Made by a program: the position numbers and the translations under genes. From Nemertoderma westbladi (Eukaryota; Animalia; Xenacoelomorpha), in assembly GCA_032718475.1 (NCBI GenBank), contig JAUCBJ010007706.1, forward strand, positions 1-64,000: a DNA stretch of 64,000 nt, read 5' to 3'. The number at the start of each line of letters is the position of its first letter. Positions within the stretch are counted from its first letter, which is position 1. This document shows positions 2,320-57,774 of this stretch, piece by piece. The notes below the pieces were generated by a model. The model did not search any database. It was not told the origin of the DNA and saw only the letters and a list, made by a program, of their open reading frames with translations.

Positions 2320-2509
2320 CTAAGGAAGAAAAACAAAATTGATAAGTTTTTAATTTTAGTTCATGATAGACAACTTTTTTAGAGGTTTTGCAATAATGAG
2401 CAAACGATAAATATATTAATTTTACTTGCATTTCAATAGTACATGTCAATTACAATCTGTTGTGGAATACAGTTATGAAGAAAATTTATACAACGATTAT
2501 GTTATACAA

Positions 2510-27826: not shown

Positions 27827-27951
27827 CCCACTCACATAGTCATACCCTATATTGACATAATCTCTCGCTTTCGGTAAATTACTAATTTATTTATTGATCA
27901 ATTTCACCAAGATATTTTTCGAAAAAGACCAAAAATAAACATCATAGGACG

Positions 27952-29793
27952 ATGAGGATGTCACCACTATTTGTATTAGTGGGGTTACTCGCCTGCTCCT
28001 CCGTGCATGTTCAGGCTAGTGATCTCTCAGCTACGCAGGAGTTGGAAAATCTTATTGAGAGATTTCTCCATGAACGTGAGTTGGATCTAGCAAGAGGGGA
28101 ATCTAGTGGTGAATCAAATGGTGAATCCAGTGCAGAATCCACTGGTGAATCTTCAGAAGAAGCCGGAGAAGAAGAAAGACGAGGAGAATCTAGTGCTGAA
28201 TCTAATGGTGAATCCAGTGCAGAATCCACTGGTGAATCTTCAGAAGAAGCCGGAGAAGAAGAAAGACGAGGAGAATCTAGTGCTGAATCTAATGGTGAAT
28301 CCAGTGCAGAATCCACTGGTGAATTTTCAGAAGAAGCCGGAGAAGAAGAAAGACGAGGAGAATCTAGTGCTGAATCTAATGGTGAATCCAGTGCAGAATC
28401 CAATGGCGAATCTTCAGAAGAAGCTGGAGAAGAAGAAAGACGAGGAGAATCTAGTGGTGAATCTAATGGTGAATCCAGTGCAGAATCCAATGGCGAATCT
28501 TCAGAAGAAGCCGGAGAAGAAGAAAGACGAGGAGAATCTAGTGCTGAATCTAATGGTGAATCCAGTGCAGAATCCACTGGTGAATCTTCAGAAGAAGCCG
28601 GAGAAGAAGAAAGACGAGGAGAATCTAGTGCTGAATCTAATGGTGAATCCAGTGCAGAATCCACTGGTGAATCTTCAGAAGAAGCTGGTGAAGAAGAAAG
28701 ACGAGGAGAATCTAGTGCTGAATCTAATGGTAAATCCAGTGCAGAATCCACTGGTGAATCTTCAGAAGAAGCCGGAGAAGAAGAAAGACGAGGAGAATCT
28801 AGTGCTGAATCTAATGGTGAATCCAGTGCGGAATCCACTGGTGAATCTTCAGAAGAAGCTGGAGAAGAAGAAGTTAGAAACTTGCAAACATTGAGAGGAG
28901 AGTACATCCGAGGAGTTTCTGAATTACTTGCACATCGTATTTTATCTGATAACAAAGAACGATTATTCTCTAGCAAACCTAAAGATAACACTGGTCTTGT
29001 AGCCAAACTGACTGCGATGGGGAAAGGAGCGATGCTAAAGATCGAACTTGCCAGTTCCAAGGCAGCTATCTTCATCGACTACATGACTCAGGTAAAGGTT
29101 GAGAAATCGGTTAGGGAATTAAATGAAGAAGGTGCTCGTCTTTTCTCCAGCAAAAAATCAACGAAAAAAACCTCAACAAAAGCAAGTTTCTTAAAAGGAG
29201 TGCAGCAGACGCTATCTGCTAACTATAAATCAACCACTGATGCAAACGCCCCTCATCCAGAAGCGATAATCCGTAAATCTGGGTCGAAGCTAACCATTGA
29301 GTATTACAAACCACTACCTGGAAAGAATGGTTACGCCACAGTCAATCTGAGAAGAGGATACAGAAATGCGATCGAAGGTGATATTGGAGCCCCTGAGGAG
29401 ATTTTTGAGAGTCGTCTTTTTGGTTCTAAGTTCTCAAAAGATCCTGGATATCAAGATGTTGTGAAACATTTACAGGCCAAGACGGATATTGGTGTTGTCC
29501 AACTACAACGAACCCGTACCGGATCCCTGACTGGTAAACTTGTCATCACCTACTATTCAGTGAACAAGGAAATCGCTAACCGAGAATATGAGTCTCGATT
29601 ATTCGGCTCCAAGAAGAAACCAGCTGCAACTGCCACCACATCCTCGGCCGATGCTTTGGCTGAGTTTTACAATAAAGTCGGCAACGAATTGAAGAAGGTA
29701 ACCCATGGCATGGCTCTGGTTACTCTCAAGAGCAAGAAGCTGAATTCTGTGGTTTACCGCCCCAAAGGAAGGGCCGGTACGATCACTCCGTAG
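27952..29793 (+). CDS. Secreted 613-aa repetitive protein, probable multi-peptide precursor (acidic Ser/Glu repeats plus four basic modules)
   Basis: Signal peptide MRMSPLFVLVGLLACSSVHVQA; uninterrupted ORF; nine GESSAESNGESSAESTGESSEEAGEEERR-type units; four R-LF(S/G)SK-initiated Lys-rich modules. Confidence 0.88.
   Translation: MRMSPLFVLVGLLACSSVHVQASDLSATQELENLIERFLHERELDLARGESSGESNGESSAESTGESSEEAGEEERRGESSAESNGESSAESTGESSEEAGEEERRGESSAESNGESSAESTGEFSEEAGEEERRGESSAESNGESSAESNGESSEEAGEEERRGESSGESNGESSAESNGESSEEAGEEERRGESSAESNGESSAESTGESSEEAGEEERRGESSAESNGESSAESTGESSEEAGEEERRGESSAESNGKSSAESTGESSEEAGEEERRGESSAESNGESSAESTGESSEEAGEEEVRNLQTLRGEYIRGVSELLAHRILSDNKERLFSSKPKDNTGLVAKLTAMGKGAMLKIELASSKAAIFIDYMTQVKVEKSVRELNEEGARLFSSKKSTKKTSTKASFLKGVQQTLSANYKSTTDANAPHPEAIIRKSGSKLTIEYYKPLPGKNGYATVNLRRGYRNAIEGDIGAPEEIFESRLFGSKFSKDPGYQDVVKHLQAKTDIGVVQLQRTRTGSLTGKLVITYYSVNKEIANREYESRLFGSKKKPAATATTSSADALAEFYNKVGNELKKVTHGMALVTLKSKKLNSVVYRPKGRAGTITP
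28096..28878 (+). repeat. Coding tandem repeat, 9 x 87 bp (29 aa)
   Basis: Frame-preserving 87-bp units with internal 12-bp (xESx) periodicity. Confidence 0.95.
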
Positions 29794-36416: not shown

Positions 36417-36663
36417 GAATTTGAATTTATTTATTTCCTCAAAATTTATATAAAAAACAACAAACTAAACAATACCACAGAATCTGCTGGGTACTTTGGG
36501 TGGGCCGCCGCTATAGCAGAGCTAGTGTTGCCTTGGCCCACTCACATATAAGGAGGAAAATTTGGCAGGGCAAAAGTGATAAGTGCGGGAATATCATAAA
36601 AACTTAAATCGGTTGGGTGAACTGTGGCAACACTGGAGTGGCATCAGAGTGGTGTTGAGGCAA
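36417..36663 (-). mobile_element. 3' end of another LINE (L2/CR1-like), antisense, abutting RTE copy 1
   Basis: The minus strand reads LPQH..DAT-like terminal residues and a 3'UTR ending in aaataaataaattcaaattca. Confidence 0.35.
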
Positions 36664-37880
36664 TTAGAAGGATAATTGAAGAGTTATCAAAAAAGAAAGA
36701 CAGGCATCTGGCTGTTATCTTTGTTGACTTCTTCAAGGCCTTTGATTCAGTCTCTCGCTCACGTATGTTCAGCATACTTTCATTATATGGGATTCCTGAT
36801 GAAATTATTGCAGCAATCAGATCAGTATACGATGGTTCGACAACATTTGTGTCTACTGTTGATGGTGACACAGAACCATTTGAAGTGTTATGGGGCGTCC
36901 TCCAAGGAGACACACTTGCACCATTCTTGTTCATTATTGTGGTTGACTATGTTCTACGCATGTCCTTAGATCATTATAATGATGATGGGATGGGGTGATG
37001 ATAACTCCACCTACTGGCTCCAGAAGTCGAGGAAATCCTGCCAAGTACCTAACTGATCTAGACTTTGCTGATGACTTAGGAGTCATTAGAATCATTAGAG
37101 GGAGCCCAACGGCTCCTCAGCACATTAGTACATGCTGCTTCTAGTGTTGGTCTTTTTATTAACTCCAGAAAGACCAAAATTCTGACAGTTAACTTTGAAA
37201 GTCCTCAGCAAGTCTCTGATCGGATGAGCATAAGCTCAAAGGATGGTATGCTTGAGCATGTGGACGACTTCTGTTACCTGGGATCATGGATCCGGACGTC
37301 AGGTGAGGACCTTCGAATACGTAAGGGAAAGGCATGGGCAGCCTTGAATAGGCTTTCCAGGATTTGGAAGTCACCGAGAATTAATCGGAAACTTAAGGTC
37401 CGATTATTTGGAGCAGCAGTAGTTCCAGTACTCCTCTACGGGAGTCCATGCTGGGCTCTAACTGCTGAGGACACCAAATCTCTGGATGGCACATTCACAA
37501 GAATGCTACGCCGGGTTCATTGTGTCAAGTACAATGCAGACATCTGCAACCAGACACTATATAACATTGGAGGTGTCTCATTGGTTCCCCCAAGCTTGAC
37601 ACTAGAACAAAATCGCCTCCGCTTTGCAGGACATTGCTTTCGCCGTGAGGACCAGCCAGTGCATAATCTTGTACTTTGGCAGCCTCATGGAGTGAATAAG
37701 CATGGTGGACAGCCCATGACTTTCTTGAGACGCATCTTAAAGGACACTCGCCTTAAAGAAGCGGATGATCTAGCAAATGTCATGGGTGATAGGGAGTTGT
37801 GGCGGTGCAATTTTGTTGACAAGCCGGCACAGCATTCTTAAAAATGCAGCTGCAATGCAGAATACCGATCCTAGTAGTAT
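36664..37880 (+). mobile_element. RTE-clade LINE, 5'-truncated copy 1 (frameshifted)
   Basis: FVDFFKAFDSV, GVLQGDTLAPFLF, LDFADDL, FCYLGSWI, PVLLYGS, RLRFAGHC. Short 3'UTR with a (TAG)n tail. A 5-nt duplication at ~36990 breaks the frame. Confidence 0.93.
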
Positions 37881-38140
37881 TATGTTGCTGTAATTCAATC
37901 TATATATAAGTTGTATGGGGCCAAACTACAGTGATGCATGCTGCATATCACAAGTGTTTATGTTTAACTAACATTCGTAATATTTTTCGACAATCTAACA
38001 CGCTACAGTCATCACAGCTGCATATCATCACAAGTGTTTAACACAGTTTTAACACTCCTACGCAACAAAAATTGTATCAAACCTTAATTGCTTTATCCCT
38101 TGATTTCGTACCTTAAGAGCTAAAATGTTTACAGAGTCAG

Positions 38141-38993
38141 ACACGTAGAAGTCTGGAATGACATCAGTTCGGATACAGAGTACACGTAGAAGTCTGGAAT
38201 GACATCAGTTCGGATACAGAGTACACGTAGAAGTCTGGAATGACATCAGTTCGGATACAGAGTACACGTAGAAGTCTGGAATGACATCAGTTCGGATACA
38301 GAGTACACGTAGAAGTCTGGAATGACATCAGTTCGGATACAGAGTACACGTAGAAGTCTGGAATGACATCAGTTCGGATACAGAGTACACGTAGAAGTCT
38401 GGAATGACATCAGTTCGGATACAGAGTACACGTAGAAGTCTGGAATGACATCAGTTCGGATACAGAGTACACGTAGAAGTCTGGAATGACATCAGTTCGG
38501 ATACAGAGTACACGTAGAAGTCTGGAATGACATCAGTTCGGATACAGAGTACACGTAGAAGTCTGGAATGACATCAGTTCGGATACAGAGTACACGTAGA
38601 AGTCTGGAATGACATCAGTTCGGATACAGAGTACACGTAGAAGTCTGGAATGACATCAGTTCGGATACAGAGTACACGTAGAAGTCTGGAATGACATCAG
38701 TTCGGATACAGAGTACACGTAGAAGTCTGGAATGACATCAGTTCGGATACAGAGTACACGTAGAAGTCTGGAATGACATCAGTTCGGATACAGAGTACAC
38801 GTAGAAGTATGGAATGACATCAGTTCGGATACAGAGTACACGTAGAAGTATGGAATGACATCAGTTCGGATACAGAGTACACGTAGAAGTCTGGAATGAC
38901 ATCAGTTCGGATACAGAGTACACGTAGAAGTCTGGAATGACATCAGTTCGGATACAGAGTACACGTAGAAGTCTGGAATGACATCAGTTCGGA
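38141..38993. repeat. 41-bp minisatellite, ~21 nearly identical copies
   Basis: Unit acacgtagaagtctggaatgacatcagttcggatacagagt, no spacers. Confidence 0.96.
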
Positions 38994-39294
38994 TTAAAAA
39001 AAACGCCCTCAATTGAGCAATTTGATAAAATTGACTTGAATAAAATTCTCTTATTAGTAAAAGCTTTTGCTGCTACCAATTATTTAAAACCTAGGCAATT
39101 GCTGATGCCTATTTACTAAACTAATCAGCATTTGAGAAAACAGAAAGTTGTACATGCGTGATTACAGTAGTATGCAATAGAACAATGCACGAGTCAGCGA
39201 ACTGCTATTAATTCAGTAATTCAGTAATTATCAGTTTACTGGGACTGGCTGCAGACGCGGTGGCGTCGGAAGACTACCTGCAGTATTACCGTAG

Positions 39295-39620
39295 CATGAG
39301 GACATGCACTGGCTCGTCCTCACTGAAAGGATATAATGTCCTGCAAAGCGGTGGAGGCTGCCCTGATCCAGTGTCAAGCTTGGTCGCACTAAAGAGACAG
39401 CTCCAGTGCTGTGTACGTACAGGTCACACTAATGAGACACCTCCAGTGCTGTGTACGTACAGGTCGCACTAATGAGAGACCTCCAGTGCTGTTTACGTAC
39501 AGGTCGCACTACTGAGACACCTCCAGTGCGTGTGCGTACAGGTCGCACTAATGAGACACCTCCAGTGCTGTGTACGTACAGGTCGCACTAATGAGACACT
39601 TCCAGTGCTGTGTACGTGTG
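39295..39620 (-). repeat. Diverged antisense RTE fragment grading into a 40-bp minisatellite (array resumes at 41439-41513)
   Basis: atgcactggctcgtcctcac...aatgtcctgcaaagcgg...agtgtcaagcttgg...aatgagacacctcca matches the reverse complement of the RTE 3' region (e.g. 37560-37670). Unit caggtcgcactaatgagacacctccagtgctgtgtacgta. Confidence 0.8.
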
Positions 39621-39625
39621 TACGT

Positions 39626-41437
39626 GACGACAGTAGGCAATCATCCCAGGCATGGAAATCGATTAATCTGCTTACTGGGCGGAAAAGCCAACCAACCACC
39701 AAGGTTAAGGCTGAATCACCAGCCGATCGCCTCAATGGTTGGAAAGCCCACTTTGAAAAGCTCCTCAATAATGACAGGGTATTGCCTGATAACTTTATAG
39801 AAGTAAAAGTGTCTGAGTCTGTACTCCCAGATATTCCCATTGGCGATATCTCCTTTGCAGAAGTGAAGGCTGCTGCAAAGAGCATTAAGACCAATCGTGC
39901 CAGTGGAGTAGATGGTGTTCCCCCTGAGGTCTTTAAAATACCTGAGTGTTTAAAGCTCATCTATCCCATCATAGTAGACATGTACCGAACAACAAGAGTC
40001 CCACAAGAAATGAAAACAAATAAGTTGGTGCCAGTTCCCAAGAAGGGCAACCTAACACTCTATGGTTCTTTTCGGGGAATCTCATTGATCTCGATTGCTG
40101 CAAAGCTATACAATAGGATTCTATTAAATCGTATCAGGGATCCCATTGAGAGACTGCTCCGTGGAAATCAGAATGGGTTCCGTAAAGGTCGTGGGACCAT
40201 GGAGCCCATTTTGGCACTTAGAAGGATAATTGAAGAGTTATCAAAAAAGAAAGACAGGCATCTGGCTGTTATCTTTGTTGACTTCTTCAAGGCCTTTGAT
40301 TCAGTCTCTCGCTCACGTACTGTATGTTCAGCATACTTTCATTATATGGGATTCCTGATGAAATTATTGCAGCAATCAGATCAGTATACGATGGTTCGAC
40401 AACATTTGTGTCTACTGTTGACGGTGACACAGAACCATTTTAAGTGTTATGGGGCGTCCTCCAAGGAGACACACTTGCACCATTCTTGTTCATTATTGTG
40501 GTTGACTATGTTCTACGCATGTCCTTAGATCATTATAATGATGATGGGGTGATGATAACTCTACCTACTGGCTCCAGAAGTCGAGGAAATCCTGCCAAGT
40601 ACCTAACTGATCTAGACTTTGCTGATGACTTAGGAGTACTCTCAGAATCATTAGAGGGAACTCAACGGCTCCTCAGCTCATTAGAACATGCTGCTTCTAG
40701 TGTTGGTCTTTTTATTAACTCCAGAAAGACCAAAATTCTGACAGTTAACTTTGAAAGTCCTCAGCAAGTCTCTGATCGGATGAGCATAAGCTCAAAGGAT
40801 GGTATGCTTGAGCATGTGGACGACTTCTGTTACCTGGGATCATGGATCCGGAAGTCAGGTGAGGACCTTCGAATACGTAAGGGAAAGGCATGGGCAGCCT
40901 TGAATAGGCTTTCCAGGATTTGGAAGTCACCGAGAATTAATCGGAAACTTAAGGTCCGATTATTTAGAGCAGCAGTAGTTCCAGTACTCCTCTACGGGAG
41001 TCCATGCTGGGCTCTAACTGCTGAGGACACCAAATCTCTGGATGGCACATTCACAAGAATGCTACGCCGGGTTCATTGTGTCAAGTACAATGCATACATC
41101 TCCAACCAGACACTATATAACATTGGAGGTGTCTCATTGGTTCCCCCAAGCTTGACACTAGAACAAAATTGCCTCCGCTTTGCAGGACATTGCTTTTGCC
41201 GTGAGGACCAGCCAGTGCATAATCTTGTACTTTGGCAGCCTCATGGCGTGAATAAGCATGGTGGACAGCCCATGACTTTCTTGAGACGCATCTTAAAGGA
41301 CACTGGCCTTGAAGATGCGGATGATCTAGCAAATGTCATGGGTGATAGGGAGTTGTTGCGGTGCAATTTTGTTGACAAGCCGGCACAGCATTCTTAAAAA
41401 TGCAGCTGCAATGCAGCATGCCGATCCTAGTAGTAGT
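39626..41437 (+). mobile_element. RTE-clade LINE, 5'-truncated copy 2 (full RT domain, disrupted)
   Basis: ASGVDGVPPE, PVPKKG, FRGISL, QNGFRKGR, DFFKAFD, FADD. A 5-nt insertion at ~40320 and TAA at 40441 disrupt it. Ends in cctagtagtagta. Confidence 0.95.
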
Positions 41438-41656
41438 AACGTACAGGTCGCACTAATGAAACACCTCCAGTGCTGTGTACGTACAGGTCACACTAATGAG
41501 ATACTTCCAGTACTGAAGCTACATAGTACCCTCTTGTTGTTTATATTATCAAATGAGCAAAAGGCGGGAAATTTAAACCATACAAGGGAATTAAATAATA
41601 TAAAATAACCAAACTGATTTTGAAATTGTTTATGATACCGGTATGAGTTCCTGACT

Positions 41657-42677
41657 CTACTGTCCCACCCTTGTGTCGGCGTTGGCCAGCAAGATGGACG
41701 GCGATGCTTCTGCCCCAACAAATACTGGGCGTTTCCATGCCGATCTCGACCCTCTTATGCACATCAGGGAGGCCCGCAGCAGCGCGAAGCTGAACTGCCT
41801 CCGCACCCAGCTATCGCACTCCGAGTAGCGCAGCTCGCGCCGGTCCGCCAGCTTTGAAGCGAGGTGCTTCACGAACAGCGTCGTGGAGGGAGATATTCCC
41901 CCCAACGCTGAGAATATCAGCGGGGTGAACGTGGCGTGCTCGACTTCCCGGATCCGTTCCAGATATTTGTTGCGTTTCCGGGTTTCGTGGAATAGGTGGG
42001 CTGCGTCGACGTCCATTGCGGCATTGGTCGGGGCGAGGGGGTTGAAGACGGATACATCTATGTACGTCTTTTGATATCGATTCCCCCAGAACCCGGAGAC
42101 CGACACGTCCAACCGAGCTTGTTGGTCCACGGAAGTGGACGTGCGGGAGAACTGCTCGCCGGTGATTGGCTGCAGGTGCGGCTCGATGGCAACGTTATGA
42201 GCGACCTCGGTTAACGTTGTGGCGACGAAATCCCGGAGCTCGTTGTGCCTAATTGACGGGTAACCGCCGGTGGGACAAGACAAGATGTGGTTTGTTGAAA
42301 ATCTTGTCCCACAGGCACAACGGGCTGGGAGCGACTCGGGCTGCCACCCATAACGCAGACACAATGCGTCGCGGAACTCCTCTTTAGTTAGGTGGGTATC
42401 GTGGAGGGTTATGGGGCGCGCGTTGAGCCAGGCCGAGGCGCCAGGTTCCGCCACGAGCTCCGTCAACCTCCGTTGATTCTCGGGTAGGTCCGAACTAACC
42501 GACTCCACCTTCTCCTTCAGTGCCGGCACGGCCCTCGCCTTGATCCGGGTGGCGATGAACTTTTGCGCCTCCCTTATAGCGACCGGTTCCACGGCCTCCG
42601 TAAACGGTTCGCAGATCCACCTGGAGTTGCCGTTTTCGATTCGTAAGTCCTCGGGAGTCGGGATCGCTAGCCCGCTG
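41657..42677 (-). mobile_element. CRE-like non-LTR retrotransposon 3' fragment (CCHC knuckle plus restriction-like endonuclease)
   Basis: GLAIP, GASAWL, FRDALCLRYG, CACG...HILSC, IRHNELRD, ARLDV...YIDV, KRNKY, FTPLIFSALGG. The frame is open and the GC content is much higher than in the flanks. RT is absent (5'-truncated). Confidence 0.85.
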
Positions 42678-43924
42678 TAAAAGCTTTTGTGGGATAACTG
42701 ATACGTTTGCCTATGCTGGCCAGTTCCCCCCAGGCGCTGGAATACTCTAAAAAAGGTTTTCTAACTGTATATATATTCCCCTCGCCCTCAAGGTACCTTT
42801 ACAGGTGTTTTAACGGACATAAAAATCATTCTGCTATATACGTGTTTTAGCGGACATGGTAAGACAAAAAACTTGTAATGCATCAACCACCTTTCACAGT
42901 TTAGCTGTGATGATTCATATTACGACATCTAGCAGCTGGTTGCTGACATGGAAACAGCCATTGGCCGCGTGGTTCTTTGTTTGGCTTGGGCCAATCAGGG
43001 CGGTTTTTCCTGTCGACGTGTAGCTTTTTAGTCGATCATAAGGAGAGTGTTCAGTCTTACTGTTTTTTCTTGATACTTTGTTGTTATTGCTGTCTAAGCC
43101 AGAAACACCGGCATTTTTGGATAGATACTGCTGTACCGTAAACTGCTTGAATTATCGAAAGTATAAACTGTTACCTAACTAAACTCACTGACTTAAATCA
43201 CTCATCTCACCTTGATACTTTTAATTGCATTGATCATATTGTTTGTACTGTTATTTTACCGTCAGTTATTAAATTGTAAATATTTGTTGATGGAAATATT
43301 GCTATTTGGATAATACGGATAAATCACCCAATTCCCAATTTTCTTGATAACACTACAGGTTAGAGAGACCGGCTATATATAACAATTGCGATTTATATTA
43401 ATGTGGTGTGTATTGAATCCAATGTTATTTAGCAGACCCTACGTGAGTCAATTACTGCTCTCTTTATGTGTGATCAAATGTACTGACTGTCGGCAGAATA
43501 GTGTGTATGATTGTGATTGGTAACAAAGTATTTCCTAAAGAATACGCTTTATACTTCAATCCCAAGCAGTATCGTTGCGTTTAGTATAAGTCTTAGTTCT
43601 GTTTAAATAGATAAAGCGCCACGTCCTAAAGGAACTGTTAATATTTCCCGAAAGCCAATAATATCTGTCAGAGATTAATTATTAACTATCTATCGAATAA
43701 TACATTAGGTATACACTGCAACCTTACACTGTAATAATACAATTCAAGCATCCGAATTCAGTCTCCCGGGTGTAGATCCATCGGGTGAATGATCGCGCAT
43801 GGGCTGACTTCGGCTAATGTTTTGCGTATTAGCATAAATTATTGTCGTATGCTAAAGTGGTTTTAATTAACTAAAAGACATATAAATTTTGGCAGGTTAA
43901 ACTGCTAAAGGTCTTCGAAAGCGC

Positions 43925-44120
43925 GAACAGTAACAGTTTATATTGTATTGCAGTGTAAGCATTAAATACAGTTTAATACTGTTCTGTCGAACAGTAACAG
44001 TTTATAATCTTATTGCAGTAAGCAATAAGGTTGCAAGTGTAGGCATTAAATACAGTAAAATACTGTTCTGTCGAACAGTAACAGTTTACAATCTTATTGC
44101 AGTAGGCAATAAGGTTGCAA
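43925..44120. repeat. ~70-bp tandem repeat, ~2.7 copies
   Basis: cgaacagtaacagttta.a.tcttattgcagta.gca recurs three times. Confidence 0.8.
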
Positions 44121-44428
44121 AATACCGTAGTGACCGGTAAAACTGAACCGGTACTTTGTAGGTCAGTAGGCCTAACTGTCATCACCGGTACCGGTACTGC
44201 TGTACAAGTACATTTAGTATTATTCGATTTGATTATTGTATACTGGTGGGTCTTAGTAATTAATCAGGGACTGCAGCCCTGAATTTTTATTGAGATTTTA
44301 CCTATTTCTGTCGGTTTTATTTCCTAGTAGGCTAATATTGAGCAGAAGGCGTGTGACCCTGCTCAGATTGTTCAGATAATTGTAGGCTGAGCTGCTGTCT
44401 GACTGTTGTTGAGTTTGGAGAGATTACG

Positions 44429-44945
44429 GCGTGTGTAGAGTTTGTCTGATAAAGTGCCGTTAGTAAGTTGGGGCAGTCATAACTGTAAGGTCAATCCCCT
44501 CTTAAAGAGTAAGTCGTACTACCGTGTTAGCACGCATACTAACTAACAGTTTCAGAGTCTGCATATACTGTAGTTTATCTAGGCTTGATCGTAGTCTGCC
44601 AGTGTTTTAGCCTGTGCTTGTTTGTGTGGTCTGTTCAGGTACCGTAATAGTTATTACTCAAATATTTGTAGGCTGGATTGTTGTCTAGCTATTTTTGGGT
44701 CTGAAGGGATTGCTGCGTGTGTAGAGTTGGTCTGATCAAGTGCCGTTAGTAAGTTGGGGCAGTCAACACTGTAAGGTCAATCCCCTCTTAAAGAGTAAGT
44801 CGTACTACCGTGTTAGCACGCATACTAACTAACAGTTTCAGAATCTGCACATACAGTAGTTTGTTTAGGCTTGATAGTAGTCTGCCAGCGTTTGGTTTGT
44901 ATTTGTTTGAGTATTCTGTACGGGTAGCGTAATATTTATTATTCA
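44429..44945. repeat. Direct tandem duplication, 286-bp period
   Basis: gcgtgtgtagagtt.gtctgat.aagtgccgttagtaagttggggcagtca at 44429 and 44715. Confidence 0.9.
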
Positions 44946-46255
44946 GAGTTTATGCGATTATTCGCAACATTCATGTCCCCAAGTTTATTCCTACAGTAAT
45001 TGTGCTTGTTATACATACCGTTATAGTTAAACTAACCCCGGTACTACATCAGGGCTGCTTGGCGTAGGTAAAGACTGACGACTTTGTGCTTCGGTCACTC
45101 CAGCAGATGCCGTGGTTCTTTTAACTGTTCAAGTATATTTAACTACTGATTATTTGTTATACCGGTACTTGTACCTAATTTAGGGTTTAGAGTACAGTGC
45201 CTTCCGAAGTAATTAGTGTAGGCAGTATATTTGTGTTGTAAAGTGGTTGATAGGCACATTCGTTAGCTCTATTAACTTCTGGATAGGAACAATCCGTGAT
45301 ACATAACGTTGTACCTATAGCGATACGGTTATAGGTCGTCAGGCGGTGGTATTTTCCTATCTGGACAGTACAATATATTTACTACTACTTATTATTTTAA
45401 ATACCGTAGTACCCTGTCCTTTGTAATAGCCAGAAATCTAACCCTTTGTTGGACTGGTTTGTAGACTTCCTGTAAAATTACCCTAAAAATTTCGTACGTA
45501 ATATTTTGTTGTGTTTAATTAGAGAATTAATCTCACCCGTATCGTAAGTAATTCGTAGTATTAAGTAACTTAGGTAAATTAGAATTATCAGTTTTAGTGT
45601 CAAATAAATAGCACTTCACTGAGAAGCGTTCAGCTTCTGTGTAGTGACTTCCCCAGAAATAATAACATTTATTTCAAACATTGTCAAAAACCCTTTTAAA
45701 CGGGTATATATCTATTATAAATCAACTCAAACGATTTATAAATAGTAGGCCTGCCATACAACGACTAGGTCTCACTGTCAGTTGGACTACTGCTTAAATA
45801 ACGGTAATAAAGTAAGTTAAAGTAACGAAGTAACCCCAAAATATTCAGAAATTCAATTATTCTAAAAATAATTGACATACCGGTACTTACCATAGGCTTA
45901 TTATATTTATTTCTATAAATTTGAGCTGAAATCATACCGGTACTCTGTAATTAATTCTAGTCCAGAATTATACTTATATACTATAAGTGTAAGCTGTATA
46001 CCGGTATTCATTATAGGCCTACTATATATATATATATATTTGTGCTAAAATTATATACCGGTACTCTGTGACAAATCTAGTCTGTAATAATACTTATATA
46101 TTATAAGCATACCGGTATTCTAATATATTGTATATATATCACGTTCCACTGAGTAACGGTACCGGTAATAAATCGCTAGGCTTGCGGTCATACTGAATTA
46201 CTAGACTTGCTTTAACTGAAACTATAGTAGTAGACATTCAACTGTATAACTAAAC

Positions 46256-49200
46256 ATGTCTGACACTCAGCAAAACCTGTCGGACAGTCTGATCGAGACC
46301 ACTATCTGTGATTCAGATAGGAGAGTGGAGCGAATAATAGAGAAGCTCGGCTCACCTCCTACTGTAAAAAAGGTCATCCCTCCAGTAGTATCAGACCCTA
46401 GGCTAGTCCACCATAGGTCCATCATAGGCACTCGGGCACAGGTAAAACGGGACCAAGAGGCAGCTGTCCTATCGCAGCAACATCTTGGTCAAGAACCTAC
46501 TTCCCAGAGACCGGATAGCTCCAGCAGTTCGGATACTGTAGAGTTGACTCCCGAACATGGAGTACAGATGGCTGATACAGTCTACTCGGACCCCCTTCTT
46601 ACTCTTCCTGCTGCAGTACTAACTACTATACTCATTGCGGTGGAGGAACATCAAGCCGACTGGGCGAAGAATAAGCAAGCGACCCAAGATGATTACGCGG
46701 GATACGCCAGGGAAGAATTGATATCTGTTGTTGAATCACAATGGAACTTTCCCGGACTCGGACTCCCGTTGGACCTGTCTGAGGCTACTTGGGAAGATAT
46801 ACACAGGATGGGAGTGGCAAAAGATACAATGGATCCAGCTGTTTGGAAGAGGTCGGCAGCAGGATATGTGCAGGGATTCTTCGGATCCTTGGAGCGATTG
46901 GAAGGGCAGCTGTTTCGACAACCTCACGGACCTCAAGAGCAGGAAGAACTGCTATATCAAATACGCGAAAGAACCCTACGCATTCGACTAATCCTCTCAG
47001 CCTTTGAGGAAACTTCCAAAAGAAGACAGGACACGTCGCTGCAGGTTGCTGTCAAAACTTGGCTACATCGGGTAGATCTCAAAATACAGGAAACAGCCCA
47101 TTGGAAATCCCAACTGGCTGAGAGATCAACCTATGAGGAACCAACTGATGTCACCGAACCAACTGATGTCACCCTTGCTCAAGCGGAAAGCGAAGAGGCC
47201 GCCGAGAAACCGCAAACTAGAGACGCTATCGACATTTATTTGTCCGACTATCAGCGATTTCTAGGAGACGAAGAGTTGAGGAGACGGCTACATGGACTTT
47301 CCCCTAGTAGTGAAGGAACCAAGCTTATACTGGACGCGATCGATACTGAAATGATAGCTGCAAACCAAGCTGAATGTGATGAAAAACTCCGTCTCACTAG
47401 AGTCCGAGAAGAACAAATAAAGAAAAGAAGGATAGAGGAACAAAAAACGGCGGCTATGGCGGCGGCTATAGCAGAGGCAGAAGCAGAAAGTAAAGCAGCA
47501 AAGACGGTGGCAAAGGCAAATGCAGAAGCAGAAAGAAAGGCAGCGGCTGCAGAGGCAGAGGCAGAAGTAGAAGCAAAAAGAAAAGTGGCAAAGGCAGTGG
47601 CAGAAGCAGAAAGGAGAGCATCTGAGCAGACTACCCAACTGGAGTTAGAAAATCTGCAAGAGACACAAGACAGTATAAATAAACAGTATACTGCTAATCA
47701 GATGCAGATGATGAGAAAATCTACTCCCAAGCGCCAAGGGTACACATCATCGGAGGAAGGCGATACTACAGACCCTGAAGGCGGAGGAGATAGATCTCAT
47801 CTAAGTAGGCGTAGAAAAACATATTACCGTCGTAAATTGCCTGATTTGCCCCCAGCTGTTAAAAGACAGCTAACTAGCACAGATTTAGGTAGGGCAGAAC
47901 CTATAGAACAATTTATCCAGGTCAAAAGACTCCCTACTATAGTCGATGAACCTGAAATAATTAGGCCTGTAATTCCCAAAGTCACTTCTGTGCTAGAGAC
48001 CCCTACACTTCCAGAGCTTAACTCTAAATTCCCTTTACATAGCACTACACTGCCTGTACCCGGTGGAACAGCCCATGCAAACACCCCTGTCCAGATAGCA
48101 GAGAGAGAAATCAATAATTTGTCTCCCGTCGTCCCGCGTCAGCCCGCTACTATGTTGGCGACTCCCGCTTCGGCGGTTGAGTGGGTGGAAGAGGGACGGC
48201 GGGGGATGAATCTTCTGCTAGGACAGATGCAGGAGACTGTCCACCAACTTAAGGGAACAGTGAGGGAAAGTAGAGCAGAGTTGCAAGAAGTGCAGCAAAG
48301 TATCGCGCTAGAACGCGACAAATTAGTCAATATACAAAAGGGCATACCAATACCCCCTGTAACATTGTGCCAACCTGTTAGGTCTGAAGTATTACATGCG
48401 CAAGGTGTGGAGCCTACACGCATCTATACTGCTAGTGAAGTTGAAACTCCTATAGCAAACCCTATTAAGGGTGATGATAGACCTGTTATTAATGATATTC
48501 CCTATAGACCTGATAATGATCCGAGAAATTTGTATACCGATAATTCGATATTAAATAACACGATGGCCCAAGAAAGCTTTACGCGTCAGATGGCTAGAAC
48601 AGAAGCCCGCCAAGCGGTCAAAGTGGGAGAGATCGTCAAATTCAATGGAGATGAGATGAAATGGTTACCTTTCAACGAATATTACAAAGATAGCATACAG
48701 AACTCTGTACTATCTAACGGAGAGAAACTTAGATTTCTCATCAAGTGTTTGGAAGGACCTCCCAAGTTAATGGCGTTAAAGTTTATTGGACATCCAGATG
48801 GATTAAGACAAGTTTGGGATACATTAAACATCAGGTATGGTAACAAAGATAACATAGCTAAGTATTTGTATACAAAATTGGTAGCCCCCCGACACTTCCT
48901 TAGTAGTGGGATTATAGAGTTTTCCGATGAAATACAAGAGATCTGTAGACAACTGGACTGGTTAGGTAAGTCGCACGAATACCAGAGTTCCATGGTTATT
49001 GGAGCCGTAGTCTCTACTTTACCAAAGGGTGGAGTATGCACACGCTGGGACAAGAAAGTGTTGTACATGAATGACCAACAACGACGAAGCCCTACCATGG
49101 CTGATCTCATGTCTTTCTTAGATAGTGAAGTAAAATTACAACTCATAAGGCAGGCCAGAGAGAAAACATCGGAAAATAAGGTAAGTGAGAAACCCGATTC

Positions 49201-50899
49201 TAGGAGAAGGATAATACCAGTGTGTTATACTGACGACGGCGAAAGCCAAGCTTCTCAAGAAGAAGACAGCGGGAAAGACACAGCAAAATCTTACTATGAC
49301 AACAAGACCTATAAAGACGTAAGTAAATACAAGTCTCGAACCAGTGACAAGAGAGAACAGGTAACAACAACTCCTCCTACGTCTCCTAAGAGAATTCACG
49401 GAAGAAAGCCCGAAGAAAGAACGAGAGTGCATAACGTTAACCAAGTTAAGGTGAGTAACATCAAACCAAAATGTGCGCTGTGCGACGGGCCTCACCGTTT
49501 GAGTGCGTGTGCTGAATTTCTAAAGAAATCCCCTGTAGACAGACGTACAGTCCTGTGGAATAAGCGGTTATGCTATAATTGCCTCAGATCAGGACACCAA
49601 CGGCGAACCTGTTACTCCGACGTAAAGTGTGCAAAGTGTGGCGCGAAACATCACATCTTGTTACACAGTGAGTTCGAACGAGACAACCCGAGTCAGGTAA
49701 GTGAGCCCGAACTACATGTCCAATTCAGTGATGTGAACGACACTGACCAAGGTTCTGAGTGGGAAGGATTCTATACAGACGAATTCTCCGATGCCAACGA
49801 ATCCTGTTATCTAATAAATACCACAGTGTATCGAGCACTTACGGATGAAAAGGACACTGACGAGTTTACTCCAACTCCTTTTGACAAACAACCATCTTGG
49901 AAAGTTCCAACTTCCAACATAGGAATAAGAGAATTTCCTGTAGTGCAAGTTCGAGTTCATGGTCCCAACAAGAGTTACATAGTGAACGCCCTACTTGACT
50001 CCGGCAGCACAGGAACATTCATCGATCAAGAACTAGCCGAAGATATCTTTGCTGGACAACCCAAGTTCCGGACTAAATTGAATATGTCAGGAATTATGCA
50101 GGTTTGGAAATCTACCCTAACGGCAGATTACTATGTAGGTGCGTTGTCCACCCCCCAGGATAAGTTAGGAACACAAGGTGTAAGGTCAGTAAAAATGGTG
50201 GCTATAAAGAACTTTGCTACTACTCAAGCAGACCTTTATAATTGGGACGAAGATGAGAGCGTCCAACATCTTAAGATACCTCGATTCCAGACAGATTATC
50301 CTGGAGTGCAAATACTTATCGGCCAAAACGCGCATGAGGCGCTCGAGCCATTAGAGAAACGGCCTGCTCAACCACAGCCACTACAAACCTATGCGGTAAG
50401 AACTAGAGTAGGTTGGTACTTCACTGGCCCTTCCCGTAGAACTCTCAAAGAGAGATTACCTCAACAACAGGTATACCAAGTAAAGGGGGAAGTGGAGAGC
50501 AGTGATGTGGACGACCCAACTGAGGGAACACCATACTCCTCAGATAATGACGATATTAACTCCAATGTAGATCAATGGAGACATTGCCTTGGGACGATTA
50601 ATCCAGCCGACATCGCTTCCAGAGGAGCAACTCCTCAAGAACTGATAGATACTCCAGGCTGGTTAGGTGGATCCGACTTCTTAAGTAAAGAAGAAGAAGA
50701 ATGGCCTCCTCATCTTACCACGGCGGAGAGTAGACAGGCCAAGGGAGCGGAGAAACTAACACAACCACTCAATCGCCCAGCTAGTCGTTTATGTTTACTG
50801 GAAAGAGACCGAAAACTGTCCGGAAACTATGGAAGGCAAGATACTCTTCCTACGACCACTTCCCTAATCCGACAAATATCTAGGGACTCCATAACGTAA
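46256..50899 (+). CDS. BEL/Pao LTR-retrotransposon Gag-protease polyprotein, 1547 aa, with RT/RNase H/integrase deleted in frame
   Basis: DUF1759-like KFNGDEMKWLPF...LSNGEKLRFLIKCLEG; three BEL-type knuckles CALCDGPHRLSAC, CYNCLRSGHQRRTC, CAKCGAKHHILLH; protease ALLDSGS...ILIGQN...TRVGW; RNase H tail QWRHCLGTINPADIASRG...WLGGSDFL...WP; integrase-end-like RPASRLCLLE. Confidence 0.9.
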   Translation: MSDTQQNLSDSLIETTICDSDRRVERIIEKLGSPPTVKKVIPPVVSDPRLVHHRSIIGTRAQVKRDQEAAVLSQQHLGQEPTSQRPDSSSSSDTVELTPEHGVQMADTVYSDPLLTLPAAVLTTILIAVEEHQADWAKNKQATQDDYAGYAREELISVVESQWNFPGLGLPLDLSEATWEDIHRMGVAKDTMDPAVWKRSAAGYVQGFFGSLERLEGQLFRQPHGPQEQEELLYQIRERTLRIRLILSAFEETSKRRQDTSLQVAVKTWLHRVDLKIQETAHWKSQLAERSTYEEPTDVTEPTDVTLAQAESEEAAEKPQTRDAIDIYLSDYQRFLGDEELRRRLHGLSPSSEGTKLILDAIDTEMIAANQAECDEKLRLTRVREEQIKKRRIEEQKTAAMAAAIAEAEAESKAAKTVAKANAEAERKAAAAEAEAEVEAKRKVAKAVAEAERRASEQTTQLELENLQETQDSINKQYTANQMQMMRKSTPKRQGYTSSEEGDTTDPEGGGDRSHLSRRRKTYYRRKLPDLPPAVKRQLTSTDLGRAEPIEQFIQVKRLPTIVDEPEIIRPVIPKVTSVLETPTLPELNSKFPLHSTTLPVPGGTAHANTPVQIAEREINNLSPVVPRQPATMLATPASAVEWVEEGRRGMNLLLGQMQETVHQLKGTVRESRAELQEVQQSIALERDKLVNIQKGIPIPPVTLCQPVRSEVLHAQGVEPTRIYTASEVETPIANPIKGDDRPVINDIPYRPDNDPRNLYTDNSILNNTMAQESFTRQMARTEARQAVKVGEIVKFNGDEMKWLPFNEYYKDSIQNSVLSNGEKLRFLIKCLEGPPKLMALKFIGHPDGLRQVWDTLNIRYGNKDNIAKYLYTKLVAPRHFLSSGIIEFSDEIQEICRQLDWLGKSHEYQSSMVIGAVVSTLPKGGVCTRWDKKVLYMNDQQRRSPTMADLMSFLDSEVKLQLIRQAREKTSENKVSEKPDSRRRIIPVCYTDDGESQASQEEDSGKDTAKSYYDNKTYKDVSKYKSRTSDKREQVTTTPPTSPKRIHGRKPEERTRVHNVNQVKVSNIKPKCALCDGPHRLSACAEFLKKSPVDRRTVLWNKRLCYNCLRSGHQRRTCYSDVKCAKCGAKHHILLHSEFERDNPSQVSEPELHVQFSDVNDTDQGSEWEGFYTDEFSDANESCYLINTTVYRALTDEKDTDEFTPTPFDKQPSWKVPTSNIGIREFPVVQVRVHGPNKSYIVNALLDSGSTGTFIDQELAEDIFAGQPKFRTKLNMSGIMQVWKSTLTADYYVGALSTPQDKLGTQGVRSVKMVAIKNFATTQADLYNWDEDESVQHLKIPRFQTDYPGVQILIGQNAHEALEPLEKRPAQPQPLQTYAVRTRVGWYFTGPSRRTLKERLPQQQVYQVKGEVESSDVDDPTEGTPYSSDNDDINSNVDQWRHCLGTINPADIASRGATPQELIDTPGWLGGSDFLSKEEEEWPPHLTTAESRQAKGAEKLTQPLNRPASRLCLLERDRKLSGNYGRQDTLPTTTSLIRQISRDSIT

Positions 50900-51444
50900 T
50901 AACATATGGAGTGGGCGTGTGACTATATCATTTTATATTTGTTTTTATTTTATATTTATGTATGTATTATTATGTAATTTTATTATAATCGTTTTCTTTA
51001 ATTTTATTTAGTAGAATGTTATTTTAGAATATTTAGTAAATTAGTGCAATATATTAGTGTTTATTACGTACATAATTACTTATAATATATATTTAGTGCG
51101 ACGGCAAGAAGTAATTATTTTCTCTTTCCTTACTGTCCGTATTATATTATAAATGCGAGACTATAGTAAGATGACATGTCAGTACTTCTTAAAGTACAGT
51201 AAAGCCACTATTATATTTAAGTATTATTGGTAGGCAGAGTATTAGGAATGCAAAGTTCAGATCCTCGTGTCTCGGCTAAACCAAGCTCTGGGTAGACCTT
51301 GGAAACGACTTGCCTCTTCACACTGACATTGCTTCGTGCGATATTGCTCTTCTACCTTATAACAAATAATACATATAGTAGCGTGATGTCCCTCTAACAG
51401 TAGCGTCAATCGCAAATAAATCTGTTAAACTTTTGACCATCTGT

Positions 51445-51705
51445 AATTCTAGTCGATTAAGATATCGTGGCACCCACCGATATACTTGAAAGACAAATTC
51501 TAGAATCAGTGGTTAACGTCCCCAGACAAGTTCTGGAATAAATTGGTGCCCATCCTAGATATTAATTTAATATTTATTAAAATCTTTAAAATTCAGATCC
51601 GTTAACAATTCTAGTCGATTAAGATATCGTAGCACTTACCGATACTCTTAAAAGACAAATTTCATAGAATTGAGGATCTTATGTCCCCAGACTTGCTCTG
51701 GAATA
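51445..51705. repeat. Direct duplication, ~162-bp period
   Basis: aattctagtcgattaagatatcgt.gcac..accgata at 51445 and 51607. Confidence 0.8.
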
Positions 51706-52520
51706 AAATTTATGTCAATTTAACATCAAATAATAAAATTCACGGGAATAAATTAAATTCATATTTAAATGAATTTCATAAATTGTCATTTTGTGCAATT
51801 TATAACATTCCCAAAATTCCAGTAATTAATAGATCATGGGAGCGGAGATTCATATTGAGTGTATTAGAGTGTGAGAATCTCCAGCATATAGTCAATAGCC
51901 GATAAAATTTATAAAATCATGCATAAAGAGGATATTGACAATTAAAGAATTACTATTAAATAACATCCCAGATCTGTATGCATGAGGATTGCCCTAATTC
52001 TACCGCTAGTTTTCCATAATGTCACCATGGCAACACCCACGCTAGAACTAGAAGCAAGTTAAAAGAACAATAAAGGGCTTGCCCCATTGCGTAGCATAAG
52101 AGTATACATAGCGCACTATTAGTATCCAAGGATACATAGTAAATACGTGACATTCTGGAAGACACTGACTAACGGACAAATGGTATGCATGTGTGCAGTA
52201 AGTAATGATTGTATGGAATTTGTGCGTTTATAGGTGAATGTTACTACTAAAGTGTGTTTACAGTAGCTAATCGCAATTGTAAAATAGCCCTAACTCTACC
52301 GAGATAACCTCAAGTGGATTCAAGCCTTTGGGACGGACAGTGGTGGGACTTGTGCCGGTTATCGTTGTCGTGCTGTGCTACATGTTGGCGTAAACACTGC
52401 GACAGCGGTACATCGGCGCTGAGAAACCCACTGTCCGGGGGCAAAAGGCCTAGTAGGAAGCGACGCCCGCTTACCTAAAATATTAACGTATATTGATATT
52501 AACAAACTCAGATAGCAAAT

Positions 52521-53624
52521 ATGACGGAATTAATAGAAGATGACCTTGGTATTAGAGAGCGATATACTCTACCTTTACAAGCGTTTGTGGATAGCTTGAT
52601 ACGCGGTGAAGCTGATCCGACTATTACGGAGGACGATGGGCGCTATATCGAACCGCCGATGTCCCAGGAACAACTTACGCGCGAAGCGGACTATAGAAAA
52701 TTCACCGCTCGCTATACGAATCGTAATGGTACGTATATGGACTTCTTAACTAACGGCCATACCTACCTCAACTATACAAGGGGAAGTTGAACCCATATGT
52801 TTAGAATCGGAAGAGATTCAGCCCCCCACGGCTCGGAGTAGCGATAGCGACTATATATTGGAATGGTATCAAGGTCCACAGTGTCTTACTGCGTATGATT
52901 ATCGCCATGCCAATTATGTTTCTCGACAACGTTGTCGGCTGTGCGCATCGAGAGACCATATTACGTCTATGGACACCAACGATCTTTGTTCCTATTTCCA
53001 CGAGCAACCGTCGATGGAAATCTATTGTGCATATTGTCGGCTTAATAATTTGCACATTTTTGCCGTCTGCCCCCAATTTATGACTCAATGCCATCATTGT
53101 CAATTAAAAGGACACGCCAGCTTTGATTGTCCCTTTAACCATGATTTAGAGAGCGTAGATGAAATGATTGTACTACGTTATATAAGAGCTTGGGAAGCGA
53201 ACGCTGATTTACATTGTGACTCACGCCATCGCTATTATCCCGGACGCGCCTATGAAGGAGTTTATGCGTTCCATCCATATTTGTTTGCCTCCGTCGAGCA
53301 GAAATCGCGCCTATCAAGTTATGAACTATTGAAGCGCGTTGGAGAATGTATTTCAACCAAATATGTACGCAAATTCCTCAGGAGCATTAATCCGAGTGAC
53401 ATCCAGTCTTACAACTTAATAAACTTTATCCGTCAAGACCCTGCCTATGGAGACTTATTTGTCAACTCACACCCTGAGTTACAAGAAGTATATCGACGGC
53501 CTTACGAGTATCGAGCCCGCGAACGCGAGTTAGAAAGAACCATTAAACCAAGGAAGTTTCTAACGGCCTATGGTCCACCCACGGCCCTCGTTCAGACCAC
53601 TCGTAAAGGACCCGTAAGAGCGGC
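52521..53624 (+). CDS. Zinc-knuckle (CCHC x3) ORF downstream of Gag-Pro; two overlapping frames (52521-52790 and 52750-53624)
   Basis: CRLCASRDH..C, CAYCRLNNLHIFAVC, CHHCQLKGHASFDC. The second frame is open from 52750. An acceptor-like ttaacaaactcag lies just before the ATG at 52521. Confidence 0.6.
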
Positions 53625-54000
53625 GCTACGCCGGGTACATTGTGTCAAGTACAATGCACACATCTCCAACCAGACACTATATAACATTGGAGGTGTCTCA
53701 TTGGTTCCCCCAAGCTTGACACTAGAACAAAATCGCCTCCGCTTTGCAGGACATTGCTTTCGCCGTGAGGACCAGCCAGTGCATAATCTTGTACTTTGGC
53801 AGCCTCATGGAGTGAATAAGCATGGTGGACAGCCCATGACTTTCTTGAGACGCATCTTAAAGGACACTGGCCTTAAAGATGCGGATGATCTAGCAAATGT
53901 CATGGGTGATAGGGAGTTGTGGCGGCGCAATTTTGTTGACAAGCCGGCACAGCATTCTTAAAAATGCAGCTGCAATGCAGCATGCCGATCCTAGTAGTAG
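53625..54000 (+). mobile_element. RTE-clade LINE, 5'-truncated copy 3 (~375 bp), fused in frame to the zinc-knuckle ORF
   Basis: Near-identical to the 3' ends of copies 1 and 2 from gctacgccggg to cctagtagtag. Confidence 0.95.
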
Positions 54001-57622: not shown

Positions 57623-57719
57623 GGCCAGAGGGCGGGATTATCAGATTAGGCCTATATTTTAAATAAATTATCATGGAAAGAAAAATTGTATAACCAACCA
57701 TGCTGACTGTACTATTACA

Positions 57720-57774
57720 GTATTACTACAGTACTATGCCCTGATAGTATCAGGGCATAGTACTGTAGTAATAC
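57720..57774. repeat. Perfect palindrome, 27-bp arms with a 1-nt centre
   Basis: gtattactacagtactatgccctgata-g-tatcagggcatagtactgtagtaatac. Confidence 0.95.

What the first reader, a model, noticed from the sequence alone, without database searches (positions are those of the whole stretch)
46256..50899. BEL/Pao element streamlined to Gag-protease by two in-frame deletions, ORF fully open
Seen: 1547 codons without a stop. Capsid-like region (~48638), three knuckles (~49472-49665) and the DSG protease (49997) are intact. Then ~45 residues after the protease end, the ORF jumps to the RNase H tail (QWRH..NPADIASRG, 50573-50708) and on to an integrase-terminus-like RPASRLCLLE (50774-50803). Known: the BEL/Pao order is Gag-PR-RT-RH-IN in one ORF. 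Inference: losing all replication enzymes while keeping the frame suggests either a non-autonomous family supplying its own capsid and protease, or a domesticated capsid gene analogous to Arc/PEG10 but from BEL/Pao.
Basis: partly seen in the sequence, partly recalled or inferred. Interest (0 to 1): 0.7.

Follow-up and report, generated by a model that had tools for sequence, protein, structure and literature searches.

The report
High-copy Gag-protease-only BEL/Pao retrotransposon family
This is one copy of a heavily repeated jumping gene that has kept its particle-shell and protease genes but lost its copying enzymes, and it likely spreads by borrowing those enzymes from rarer relatives rather than being a gene tamed by the host.

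Summary
The 1547-codon frame is open; capsid, triple zinc knuckle and DSG protease are intact; about 520 residues (RT, RNase H core) and about 490 residues (integrase) are missing in frame. The sequence is neither a lone gene nor a one-off wreck. 92,611 and 22,535 assembly contigs from two DNA runs lie on the 10.8 kb around it. Contigs only 87-91% identical to the window cross each deletion point, so both deletions predate the family's diversification. Sites that vary within the family are mostly synonymous (19 of 29; 29% expected), while changes private to this copy are not (2 of 10): selection acts on the spreading lineages, not on this locus. Best reading (0.78): a high-copy non-autonomous BEL/Pao family that makes its own capsid and protease and is likely mobilised in trans, like mouse IAP 1Δ1 and plant TR-GAG elements. 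Domestication is not supported. Open points: no LTR pair or target-site duplication was found, no genome was available, expression is untested, and an orphan zinc-knuckle ORF downstream is amplified with it. New variant of a known kind; interest 0.36.

The parts
46256..50899 (+). ORF1, Gag-protease polyprotein with two pol remnants, 1547 aa
46256..48493 (+). Long N-terminal Gag extension (about 750 aa) with an Ala/Glu/Lys-rich 45-bp repeat at 47477-47617; most variable part of ORF1 among copies
   Evidence: repeat; lower depth, in-frame joints; only a weak profile match at 47408-47734
48623..49186 (+). Capsid domain, predicted two-lobed helical retroelement CA fold
   Evidence: DUF1759; pLDDT mostly above 90; PNMA2 capsid 8rb3 Z 9.2, rmsd 4.1, 162 aligned; Ty1 CA-CTD Z 8.6, rmsd 3.4, 90 aligned
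49472..49666 (+). Triple Cys-His box (nucleocapsid), BEL/Pao pattern
   Evidence: pattern as defined in PMC554778
49925..50431 (+). Retropepsin-type aspartic protease, LLDSG at 49991-50005 and LIG near 50315
   Evidence: Ddi1 RVP 4rgh Z 9.1, rmsd 3.3, 115 aligned; HTLV-1 protease Z 9.0, rmsd 3.3, 107 aligned
50432..50557 (+). Post-protease linker ending at deletion junction 1 (about 50556; RT and RNase H core missing, about 520 aa)
   Evidence: profile resumes at 50558; contigs bridge or leave the window here
50558..50755 (+). Retained RNase H tail stub (QWRH...NPAD..SRG...W), about 66 aa
   Evidence: predicted small helical unit, pLDDT 75-87
50756..50806 (+). Deletion junction 2 (about 50756; integrase missing, about 490 aa) and integrase C-terminal RP motif
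42800..46255 (.). 5' non-coding region amplified with ORF1 (84-bp and 286-bp duplications inside); left limit not determined
   Evidence: depth as high as in ORF1 in all bins; repeats
50900..52520 (.). Non-coding spacer amplified with ORF1
52521..53624 (+). ORF2, orphan protein with three Cys/His knuckle-like motifs, split over two frames near 52750-52790 in this copy; amplified with ORF1
   Evidence: weak zf-CCHC E 0.04; no homologue among 166 candidates
53625..54000 (+). 3' fragment of a LINE inserted at the end of ORF2 (98% identical to copies at 37505 and 41061); not part of the element

Best explanation
The ORF is one recent copy of a highly repeated BEL/Pao-derived element that encodes capsid, nucleocapsid and protease but no RT, RNase H core or integrase, and that is likely copied as a non-autonomous LTR retrotransposon with enzymes borrowed from rarer, less-deleted relatives. 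Shown: domain content, the two in-frame gaps, great multiplicity, both junctions in divergent copies, synonymous excess among family variants. Inferred: the Gag-protease protein is made, binds its own RNA in cis and co-assembles with a partner's full polyprotein, so lineages that keep the frame open and the domains intact are the ones that spread; the RNase H and integrase stubs are mostly leftovers of the deletions. Because BEL/Pao elements encode Gag and Pol in one frame, such copies would also supply surplus capsid (inference). The window copy itself has likely drifted neutrally since insertion.
For: Multiplicity: 92,611 (X1) and 22,535 (X3) contigs on 42800-53600, all 30 bins covered, identity classes from 99+% to under 90%; 7,748 and 1,845 contigs on 701 bp; single X3 contigs at depth 9,251, 4,629 and 4,671 beside listed contigs at 10-50. 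Junction 1: 3 of 32 listed pieces bridge it with 31+ letters each side at 89-90% identity (X4 records 17 and 19, X5 record 26), one more with a short side (X3, depth 4,629); 1 piece leaves the window there at depth 30, against 1,085 for a bridging piece in the same run. Junction 2: bridged by X4 record 22 (89%, depth 960) and, with a 30-letter side, X3 record 14 (87%, depth 4,671). Selection: 19 of 29 family-polymorphic ORF sites synonymous against 28.7% expected (p 4e-5); 2 of 10 copy-private-like sites (Fisher p 0.025). The 7 indel rows inside ORF1 pair up into 4 events, all net in frame; the 12 best-supported indels (of 136) all lie outside ORF1. Low-depth contigs match only the RNase H stub at about 82% and differ on both sides (X1 record 4, X3 record 12), as a diverged partner would. 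Folds intact. Precedent for a cis-acting deleted product: IAP 1Δ1 (PMC6466679).
Against: No LTR pair, primer-binding site or target-site duplication found in the window, so retrotransposition is inferred. No full-length partner was seen whole. Depth is no copy number and no single-copy control was laid. The substitution test uses only the 52 ORF rows shown (one search shows 40 of 1,444 rows, 40 of 158), each change scored alone, and part of the synonymous excess could be inherited from autonomous ancestors. Junction 2 is not universal: an abundant variant (X4 record 21, depth 839; X3 record 13; X5 record 27) runs on 192-253 unlike letters at 50751-50755. The co-amplified unit (10.8 kb or more) is longer than the 4.2-10 kb usual for complete BEL/Pao elements (PMC3118150).
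Confidence: 0.78

Rival explanations
1. The Gag-protease unit was amplified by something other than its own retrotransposition, as cargo of a large DNA transposon or in tandem or segmental arrays.
For: No LTR pair or LTR-edge signal found; the whole 10.8 kb, including ORF2, is amplified together and under 0.5% of laid X3 contigs run on into unlike sequence.
Against: No terminal inverted repeat spans the unit; both ends of this copy meet LINE fragments (41657-42760 and 53625-54000), which can explain lost termini; passive cargo does not predict synonymous excess and in-frame indels.
Confidence: 0.09
2. The element is a retro-copied spliced subgenomic Gag-protease RNA of a full-length element: the 'deletions' are removed introns (as for spliced gag RNAs of copia-type elements; recalled, and PMC8892269 seen as a search listing only).
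For: Two clean in-frame gaps that spare Gag and protease; 3 other database proteins (P0060, P0128, P0134) join the post-protease linker to the RNase H tail at about the same place.
Against: Junction 2 differs among abundant variants; those 3 proteins are single-member clusters and at least P0060 is an automated gene model. Splice signals cannot be tested because the removed sequence is not in the window. This changes the origin, not the present non-autonomous state.
Confidence: 0.06
3. A domesticated host capsid-protease gene, analogous to Arc, PEG10 or PNMA but from BEL/Pao.
For: Open frame, intact folds, and near-identical pieces in runs labelled with two other organisms (X5, X7).
Against: Tens of thousands of variant contigs and amplified non-coding flanks; copy-private changes 8 of 10 non-synonymous; no orthologue above about 30% identity over the Gag-protease region in 5.8 billion or 1.8 billion proteins; X5 and X7 pieces are shallow and up to 100% identical, which fits carry-over as well as sharing.
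Confidence: 0.04
4. A recent dead-on-arrival deletion derivative of an active full-length element.
For: An open frame is expected by chance in a young copy; many contigs are 99+% identical to the window.
Against: Both junctions are crossed by contigs 9-13% diverged from the window, some at depths of 1,000-4,700; the form leaving at junction 1 is the shallow one.
Confidence: 0.03

Closest known systems
BEL/Pao LTR retrotransposons (Belpaoviridae), e.g. Sinbad (PMC554778) and the survey in PMC3118150
   Same: DUF1759 capsid, triple Cys-His box, LLDSG + LIG protease, remnants of RNase H tail and integrase tail in the family's order, one frame; best relatives 21-28% identical over the Gag-protease region.
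   Different: RT, RNase H core and integrase absent; much longer Gag N-terminus; orphan 3' ORF; LTRs not found in this copy. The largest family in the 62-genome survey had 397 copies; the contig counts here suggest a family at least in that range.
Mouse IAP 1Δ1 (PMC6466679, passages)
   Same: Internal deletion that keeps an open fusion frame; non-autonomous; more successful than full-length relatives; product reported to help retrotransposition in cis. Closest functional model.
   Different: IAP is a betaretrovirus-like ERV and its 1.9-kb deletion removes part of gag and pol; here Gag and protease are whole and two deletions remove nearly all of pol.
TR-GAG elements of plants (PMC4350172, PMC8704663)
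   Same: Non-autonomous, Gag-only coding, tens to about 1,200 copies, shown to transpose in Arabidopsis ddm1.
   Different: Plant, Copia/Gypsy-related, under 4 kb, defined by lacking protease similarity; here animal, BEL/Pao, over 10 kb, intact DSG protease.
Defective BEL-Pao/Anakin copies in mosquitoes (PMC7642597, passages)
   Same: BEL-Pao copies lacking domains, with an extra 3' ORF.
   Different: Described as assorted defective copies with a chuvirus glycoprotein, not as a family with shared junctions under selection; ORF2 here has no homologue.
Domesticated capsid genes Arc, PEG10, PNMA2
   Same: Capsid fold (PNMA2 and dArc1 are among the top structural matches).
   Different: Those are fixed host genes of Ty3/Gypsy origin (recalled; PMC10516033 seen as listing only); this is multicopy with neutral-looking private changes.

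Membership tests
BEL/Pao lineage (origin of the ORF) | Triple Cys-His box CX2CX3-4HX4C, CX2CX2-4HX4-5C, CX2-4CX3HX4H | tested here: met
   definition from PMC554778
BEL/Pao lineage (origin of the ORF) | LLDXG + LIG protease motifs and retropepsin fold | tested here: met
BEL/Pao lineage (origin of the ORF) | DUF1759 capsid region and homology to BEL/Pao polyproteins | tested here: met
BEL/Pao lineage (origin of the ORF) | Placement by RT phylogeny in one of the seven superfamilies | not testable with these tools
   No RT in the element
Autonomous BEL/Pao element | RT (YVDD), RNase H (DAS) and integrase (DDE) present | tested here: not met
   No match in six frames of the window
Non-autonomous LTR retrotransposon | Multiple copies sharing the deleted structure | tested here: met
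   junction 1 shared widely, junction 2 by part of the family
Non-autonomous LTR retrotransposon | Paired LTRs, PBS/PPT and target-site duplication | tested here: inconclusive
   None found in the window, but both ends of this copy abut LINE insertions and no other copy could be read
Non-autonomous LTR retrotransposon | Autonomous partner in the same genome | tested here: inconclusive
   Shallow contigs match only conserved pieces at 81-84% and continue in unlike sequence; what they continue into was not determined
TR-GAG | Under 4 kb | tested here: not met
   ORF1 alone is 4.6 kb; co-amplified unit 10.8 kb or more; criterion from PMC4350172
TR-GAG | Gag similarity only, no aspartic protease | tested here: not met
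   Intact protease
Domesticated capsid gene (Arc/PEG10/PNMA type) | Single or low copy | tested here: not met
Domesticated capsid gene (Arc/PEG10/PNMA type) | Purifying selection on the locus itself | tested here: inconclusive
   2 of 10 copy-private-like sites synonymous, as neutral drift predicts, but the count is small
Domesticated capsid gene (Arc/PEG10/PNMA type) | Syntenic orthologues in related species | not testable with these tools
   No genome held

The most novel reading that the evidence does not exclude
A split-genome BEL/Pao system: abundant Gag-protease elements build the particles and rare partners supply only Pol, with the retained 66-residue RNase H tail serving as a functional adaptor (for protease release or Pol recruitment) and the orphan zinc-knuckle ORF2 as an accessory RNA-binding factor; the same protease-to-RNase-H-tail join would recur in unrelated animals (P0060, P0128, P0134). 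Against it: those three are single records picked out by a query that has the join, and one abundant X4 contig carries a change at 50587 that would end the frame inside the stub if it stands alone.
Probability: 0.13. Interest if true: 0.7.

Novelty: new variant of a known kind. Interest (0 to 1): 0.36.

Why it matters
Non-autonomous LTR elements that keep a working Gag are documented in plants (TR-GAG) and mice (IAP 1Δ1). Ten literature searches returned no description of a BEL/Pao family reduced to Gag plus protease with shared junctions and selection on the frame; Repbase and Dfam could not be searched and may hold such entries. The family gives a natural, many-copy test of why parasites of retrotransposons keep capsid genes (cis preference versus helper Gag), and of how single-frame BEL/Pao elements obtain surplus Gag. 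It is also a caution for scans: an intact Gag-protease frame is not evidence of domestication.

Tried and rejected
No genome held, so no direct copy count, LTR or TSD survey. Self-comparisons of the window found no LTR pair; a purine-rich run followed by TG at about 50908-50918 looked like a PPT/LTR start, but depth runs on past it and X1/X3 show no excess of contigs with unlike flanks, so I rejected it. No related loci in metagenome or viral contigs by protein or by a 22-base pattern. No RNA holder listed; X5 is only guessed to be RNA, so expression is untested. The ORF1 protein is not in the protein collection, and the 'shorter' search gave 2 distant hits. ORF2: no homologue, no similarity to the ORF at 63-920, single-sequence model unusable (pLDDT 37). 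The Atlas tool gave no answer. Rfam: one sub-threshold hairpin outside the element. The junction-2 spans from alignment A1 (second list) were dropped because the aligner misplaced the short tail; motif distances were used instead. Thirteen listed ORF variants under 5% share in X1 were left out of the selection test (4 synonymous, 8 not, 1 stop). Earlier-findings look-ups were empty. Supplementary files of the papers were not read; those of PMC3118150 (family tables) could bear on the novelty claim.
Full report
Observation. The frame 46256-50899 is open for 1547 codons. Pfam finds DUF1759 at residues 796-924 (E 3.4e-12) and a weak aspartyl protease. All 46 hits of the first protein search carry Pfam PF05380, PF03564 or PF18701, the BEL/Pao-type domains. 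In pairwise alignments, query 1228-1392 matches the protease region (P0002 488-645) and query 1436-1484 matches a region some 560 residues later (P0002 1204-1252). A profile of 18 full-length relatives covers positions 163-703 at 48494-50461 and resumes at position 1255 at 50558; RT, RNase H core and integrase have no match in any frame of the window. Motif distances give about 520 and 490 residues missing (64 against a median 581 in 123 proteins; 58 against 545 in 76). The integrase-tail motif is the weakest link (E 0.0013) but is the best match in the window.

Structure. A model of residues 769-1547 from a 43-sequence alignment has confident capsid, knuckle and protease domains joined by disordered linkers, and a small helical RNase H stub. 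The capsid aligns with PNMA2 (Z 9.2, rmsd 4.1, 162 residues), the Ty1 C-terminal domain and dArc1; the protease with Ddi1 and retroviral proteases (Z about 9, rmsd 3.3). A shared fold shows no function, but belpaovirus CA domains do self-assemble (bioRxiv 10.64898/2026.03.22.711591, passages).

One copy or many? No genome is held, so I used public runs. Four DNA runs of one organism in three studies hold 64-85% of the sampled words; one of these may be the window's source. On 42800-53600, 92,611 contigs of X1 and 22,535 of X3 were laid, spread over all identity classes (X1: 22,118 at 99+%, 32,781 at 95-99, 28,911 at 90-95, 8,801 under 90), and all 30 bins, coding or not, are deeply covered. 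Single X3 contigs reach depth 9,251 while other listed contigs sit at 10-50. The tool warns that depth is no copy number and I laid no single-copy control, so I claim only a large family, likely hundreds of copies or more.

Are the junctions shared? On 50300-51000 (tally), of 32 listed pieces three bridge junction 1 (about 50556) with 31 or more letters on each side, at 89-90% identity, and a fourth does so with a short side at depth 4,629. One piece stops there and goes on for 231 unlike letters at depth 30, against 1,085 for a bridging piece of the same run. Junction 2 (about 50756) is bridged by one piece at 89% (depth 960) and one with a 30-letter side at 87% (depth 4,671); three pieces stop there and go on for 192-253 unlike letters, one at depth 839. 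So junction 1 is old and dominant; junction 2 is old but belongs to part of the family. Shallow contigs that match only the RNase H stub or a capsid piece at 81-83% are candidates for a diverged partner; I did not determine what they continue into.

Selection. Of 52 listed variants inside ORF1, 29 are polymorphic in the family (5-80% of X1 depth): 19 synonymous, against 28.7% expected from the observed mutation spectrum (p 4e-5); all 5 in the capsid-to-protease span are synonymous. Ten are near-fixed against the window (80% or more), i.e. likely private to this copy: 2 synonymous, 8 not (Fisher p 0.025). Thirteen rare rows were set aside. The seven indel rows inside ORF1 make four net in-frame events; the 12 best-supported indels lie outside ORF1; of 7 listed forward joints inside ORF1, 5 are multiples of three and 2 are undetermined. 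This is the pattern of a mobile family: constraint on branches that went on to spread, drift on the terminal copy. With 0.5-0.7% private change an open frame has probability 0.22-0.34, so it needs no host function. Limits: the rows are the tool's best-supported subset, each scored alone.

Surroundings. The amplified unit includes 3.4 kb upstream, a 1.6-kb spacer and ORF2 (52521-53624), an orphan with knuckle-like motifs. It meets a probable non-LTR fragment on the left (41657-42760) and a LINE 3' fragment on the right (53625-54000). No LTR pair was found. This is the main gap in the case.

Mechanism. Most likely (0.78) the element is transcribed, its Gag-protease product packages its own RNA preferentially and co-assembles with a partner's polyprotein that brings RT and integrase. 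These steps are inferred. The model is IAP 1Δ1, whose deleted gag-pol fusion is reported to act in cis and which causes most new IAP insertions (PMC6466679, passages). Rivals: amplification as cargo or arrays (0.09), a retro-copied spliced RNA (0.06), domestication (0.04), dead on arrival (0.03).

Comparison. It derives from BEL/Pao (triple Cys-His box, LLDSG + LIG; PMC554778, passages) but fails the test for an autonomous element. It works like TR-GAG (PMC4350172, abstract and passages; PMC8704663, passages) but is not one: too long and with a protease. The BEL/Pao survey (PMC3118150, abstract, Background and passages) has no occurrence of 'autonomous' or 'deletion' in its main text; mosquito papers mention defective or non-coding elements (PMC7642597, PMC3286476, passages). 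Ten searches found no account of this architecture; transposon databases were not searchable. Three database proteins show a similar protease-to-RNase-H-tail join, an unverified lead.

Verdict. Real feature; a high-copy, likely non-autonomous Gag-protease BEL/Pao family under purifying selection; not a domesticated gene on present evidence. New variant of a known kind; interest 0.36.

Noticed in passing
window 52521-53624 (+): Orphan ORF with three Cys/His knuckle-like motifs, amplified with the BEL/Pao unit; no homologue found; split over two frames in this copy and ended by a LINE insertion.
   Followed up: partly
window 50751-50815, runs X3, X4, X5: A second abundant variant leaves the window at about 50755 and rejoins at about 50815 with at least 192-386 unlike letters in between: a subfamily with a different or smaller second deletion.
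   Followed up: partly
window 50587, run X4: One variant makes up 54% of depth in X4 but 0.04% in X1 and none in X3; X4 may be a different population or an RNA run dominated by few loci (it is listed as DNA by guess).
   Followed up: no
window 36621-41438 and 53625-54000 (+): Three copies, 97-98% identical, of a LINE with an RT domain (Pfam RVT_1; RTE-like by recall), with 40-41 bp tandem arrays at 38018-39657 and 41439-41515.
   Followed up: partly
window 41657-42760 (-): 366-codon open frame without Pfam match whose motifs recall the C-terminal zinc-knuckle/restriction-like endonuclease region of a non-LTR element (recalled, untested); it abuts the left end of the BEL/Pao unit.
   Followed up: no
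window 27898-29793 (+): 631-codon single frame with a signal-peptide-like start, a long Ser/Glu-rich tandem repeat and a C-terminal part with repeated RLF motifs; no Pfam match above cut-off. It may be a secreted or precursor protein.
   Followed up: no
window 1640-2449 (-) and 23488-24003 (-): Sulfotransferase-like frames (PF00685 E 3e-10 for the first; weak for the second), likely host gene exons.
   Followed up: partly
window 63-920 (+): 285-codon Arg/Pro/Tyr-rich frame with no Pfam match and no similarity to ORF2.
   Followed up: partly
proteins P0060, P0128, P0134: Unrelated database proteins that also join the post-protease linker to the RNase H tail; single-member clusters, possibly gene-model artefacts or a recurrent deletion hotspot.
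   Followed up: partly
window 57719-57773: Perfect 27-bp inverted repeat (hairpin); sub-threshold Rfam miRNA match, likely a small transposon remnant.
   Followed up: no
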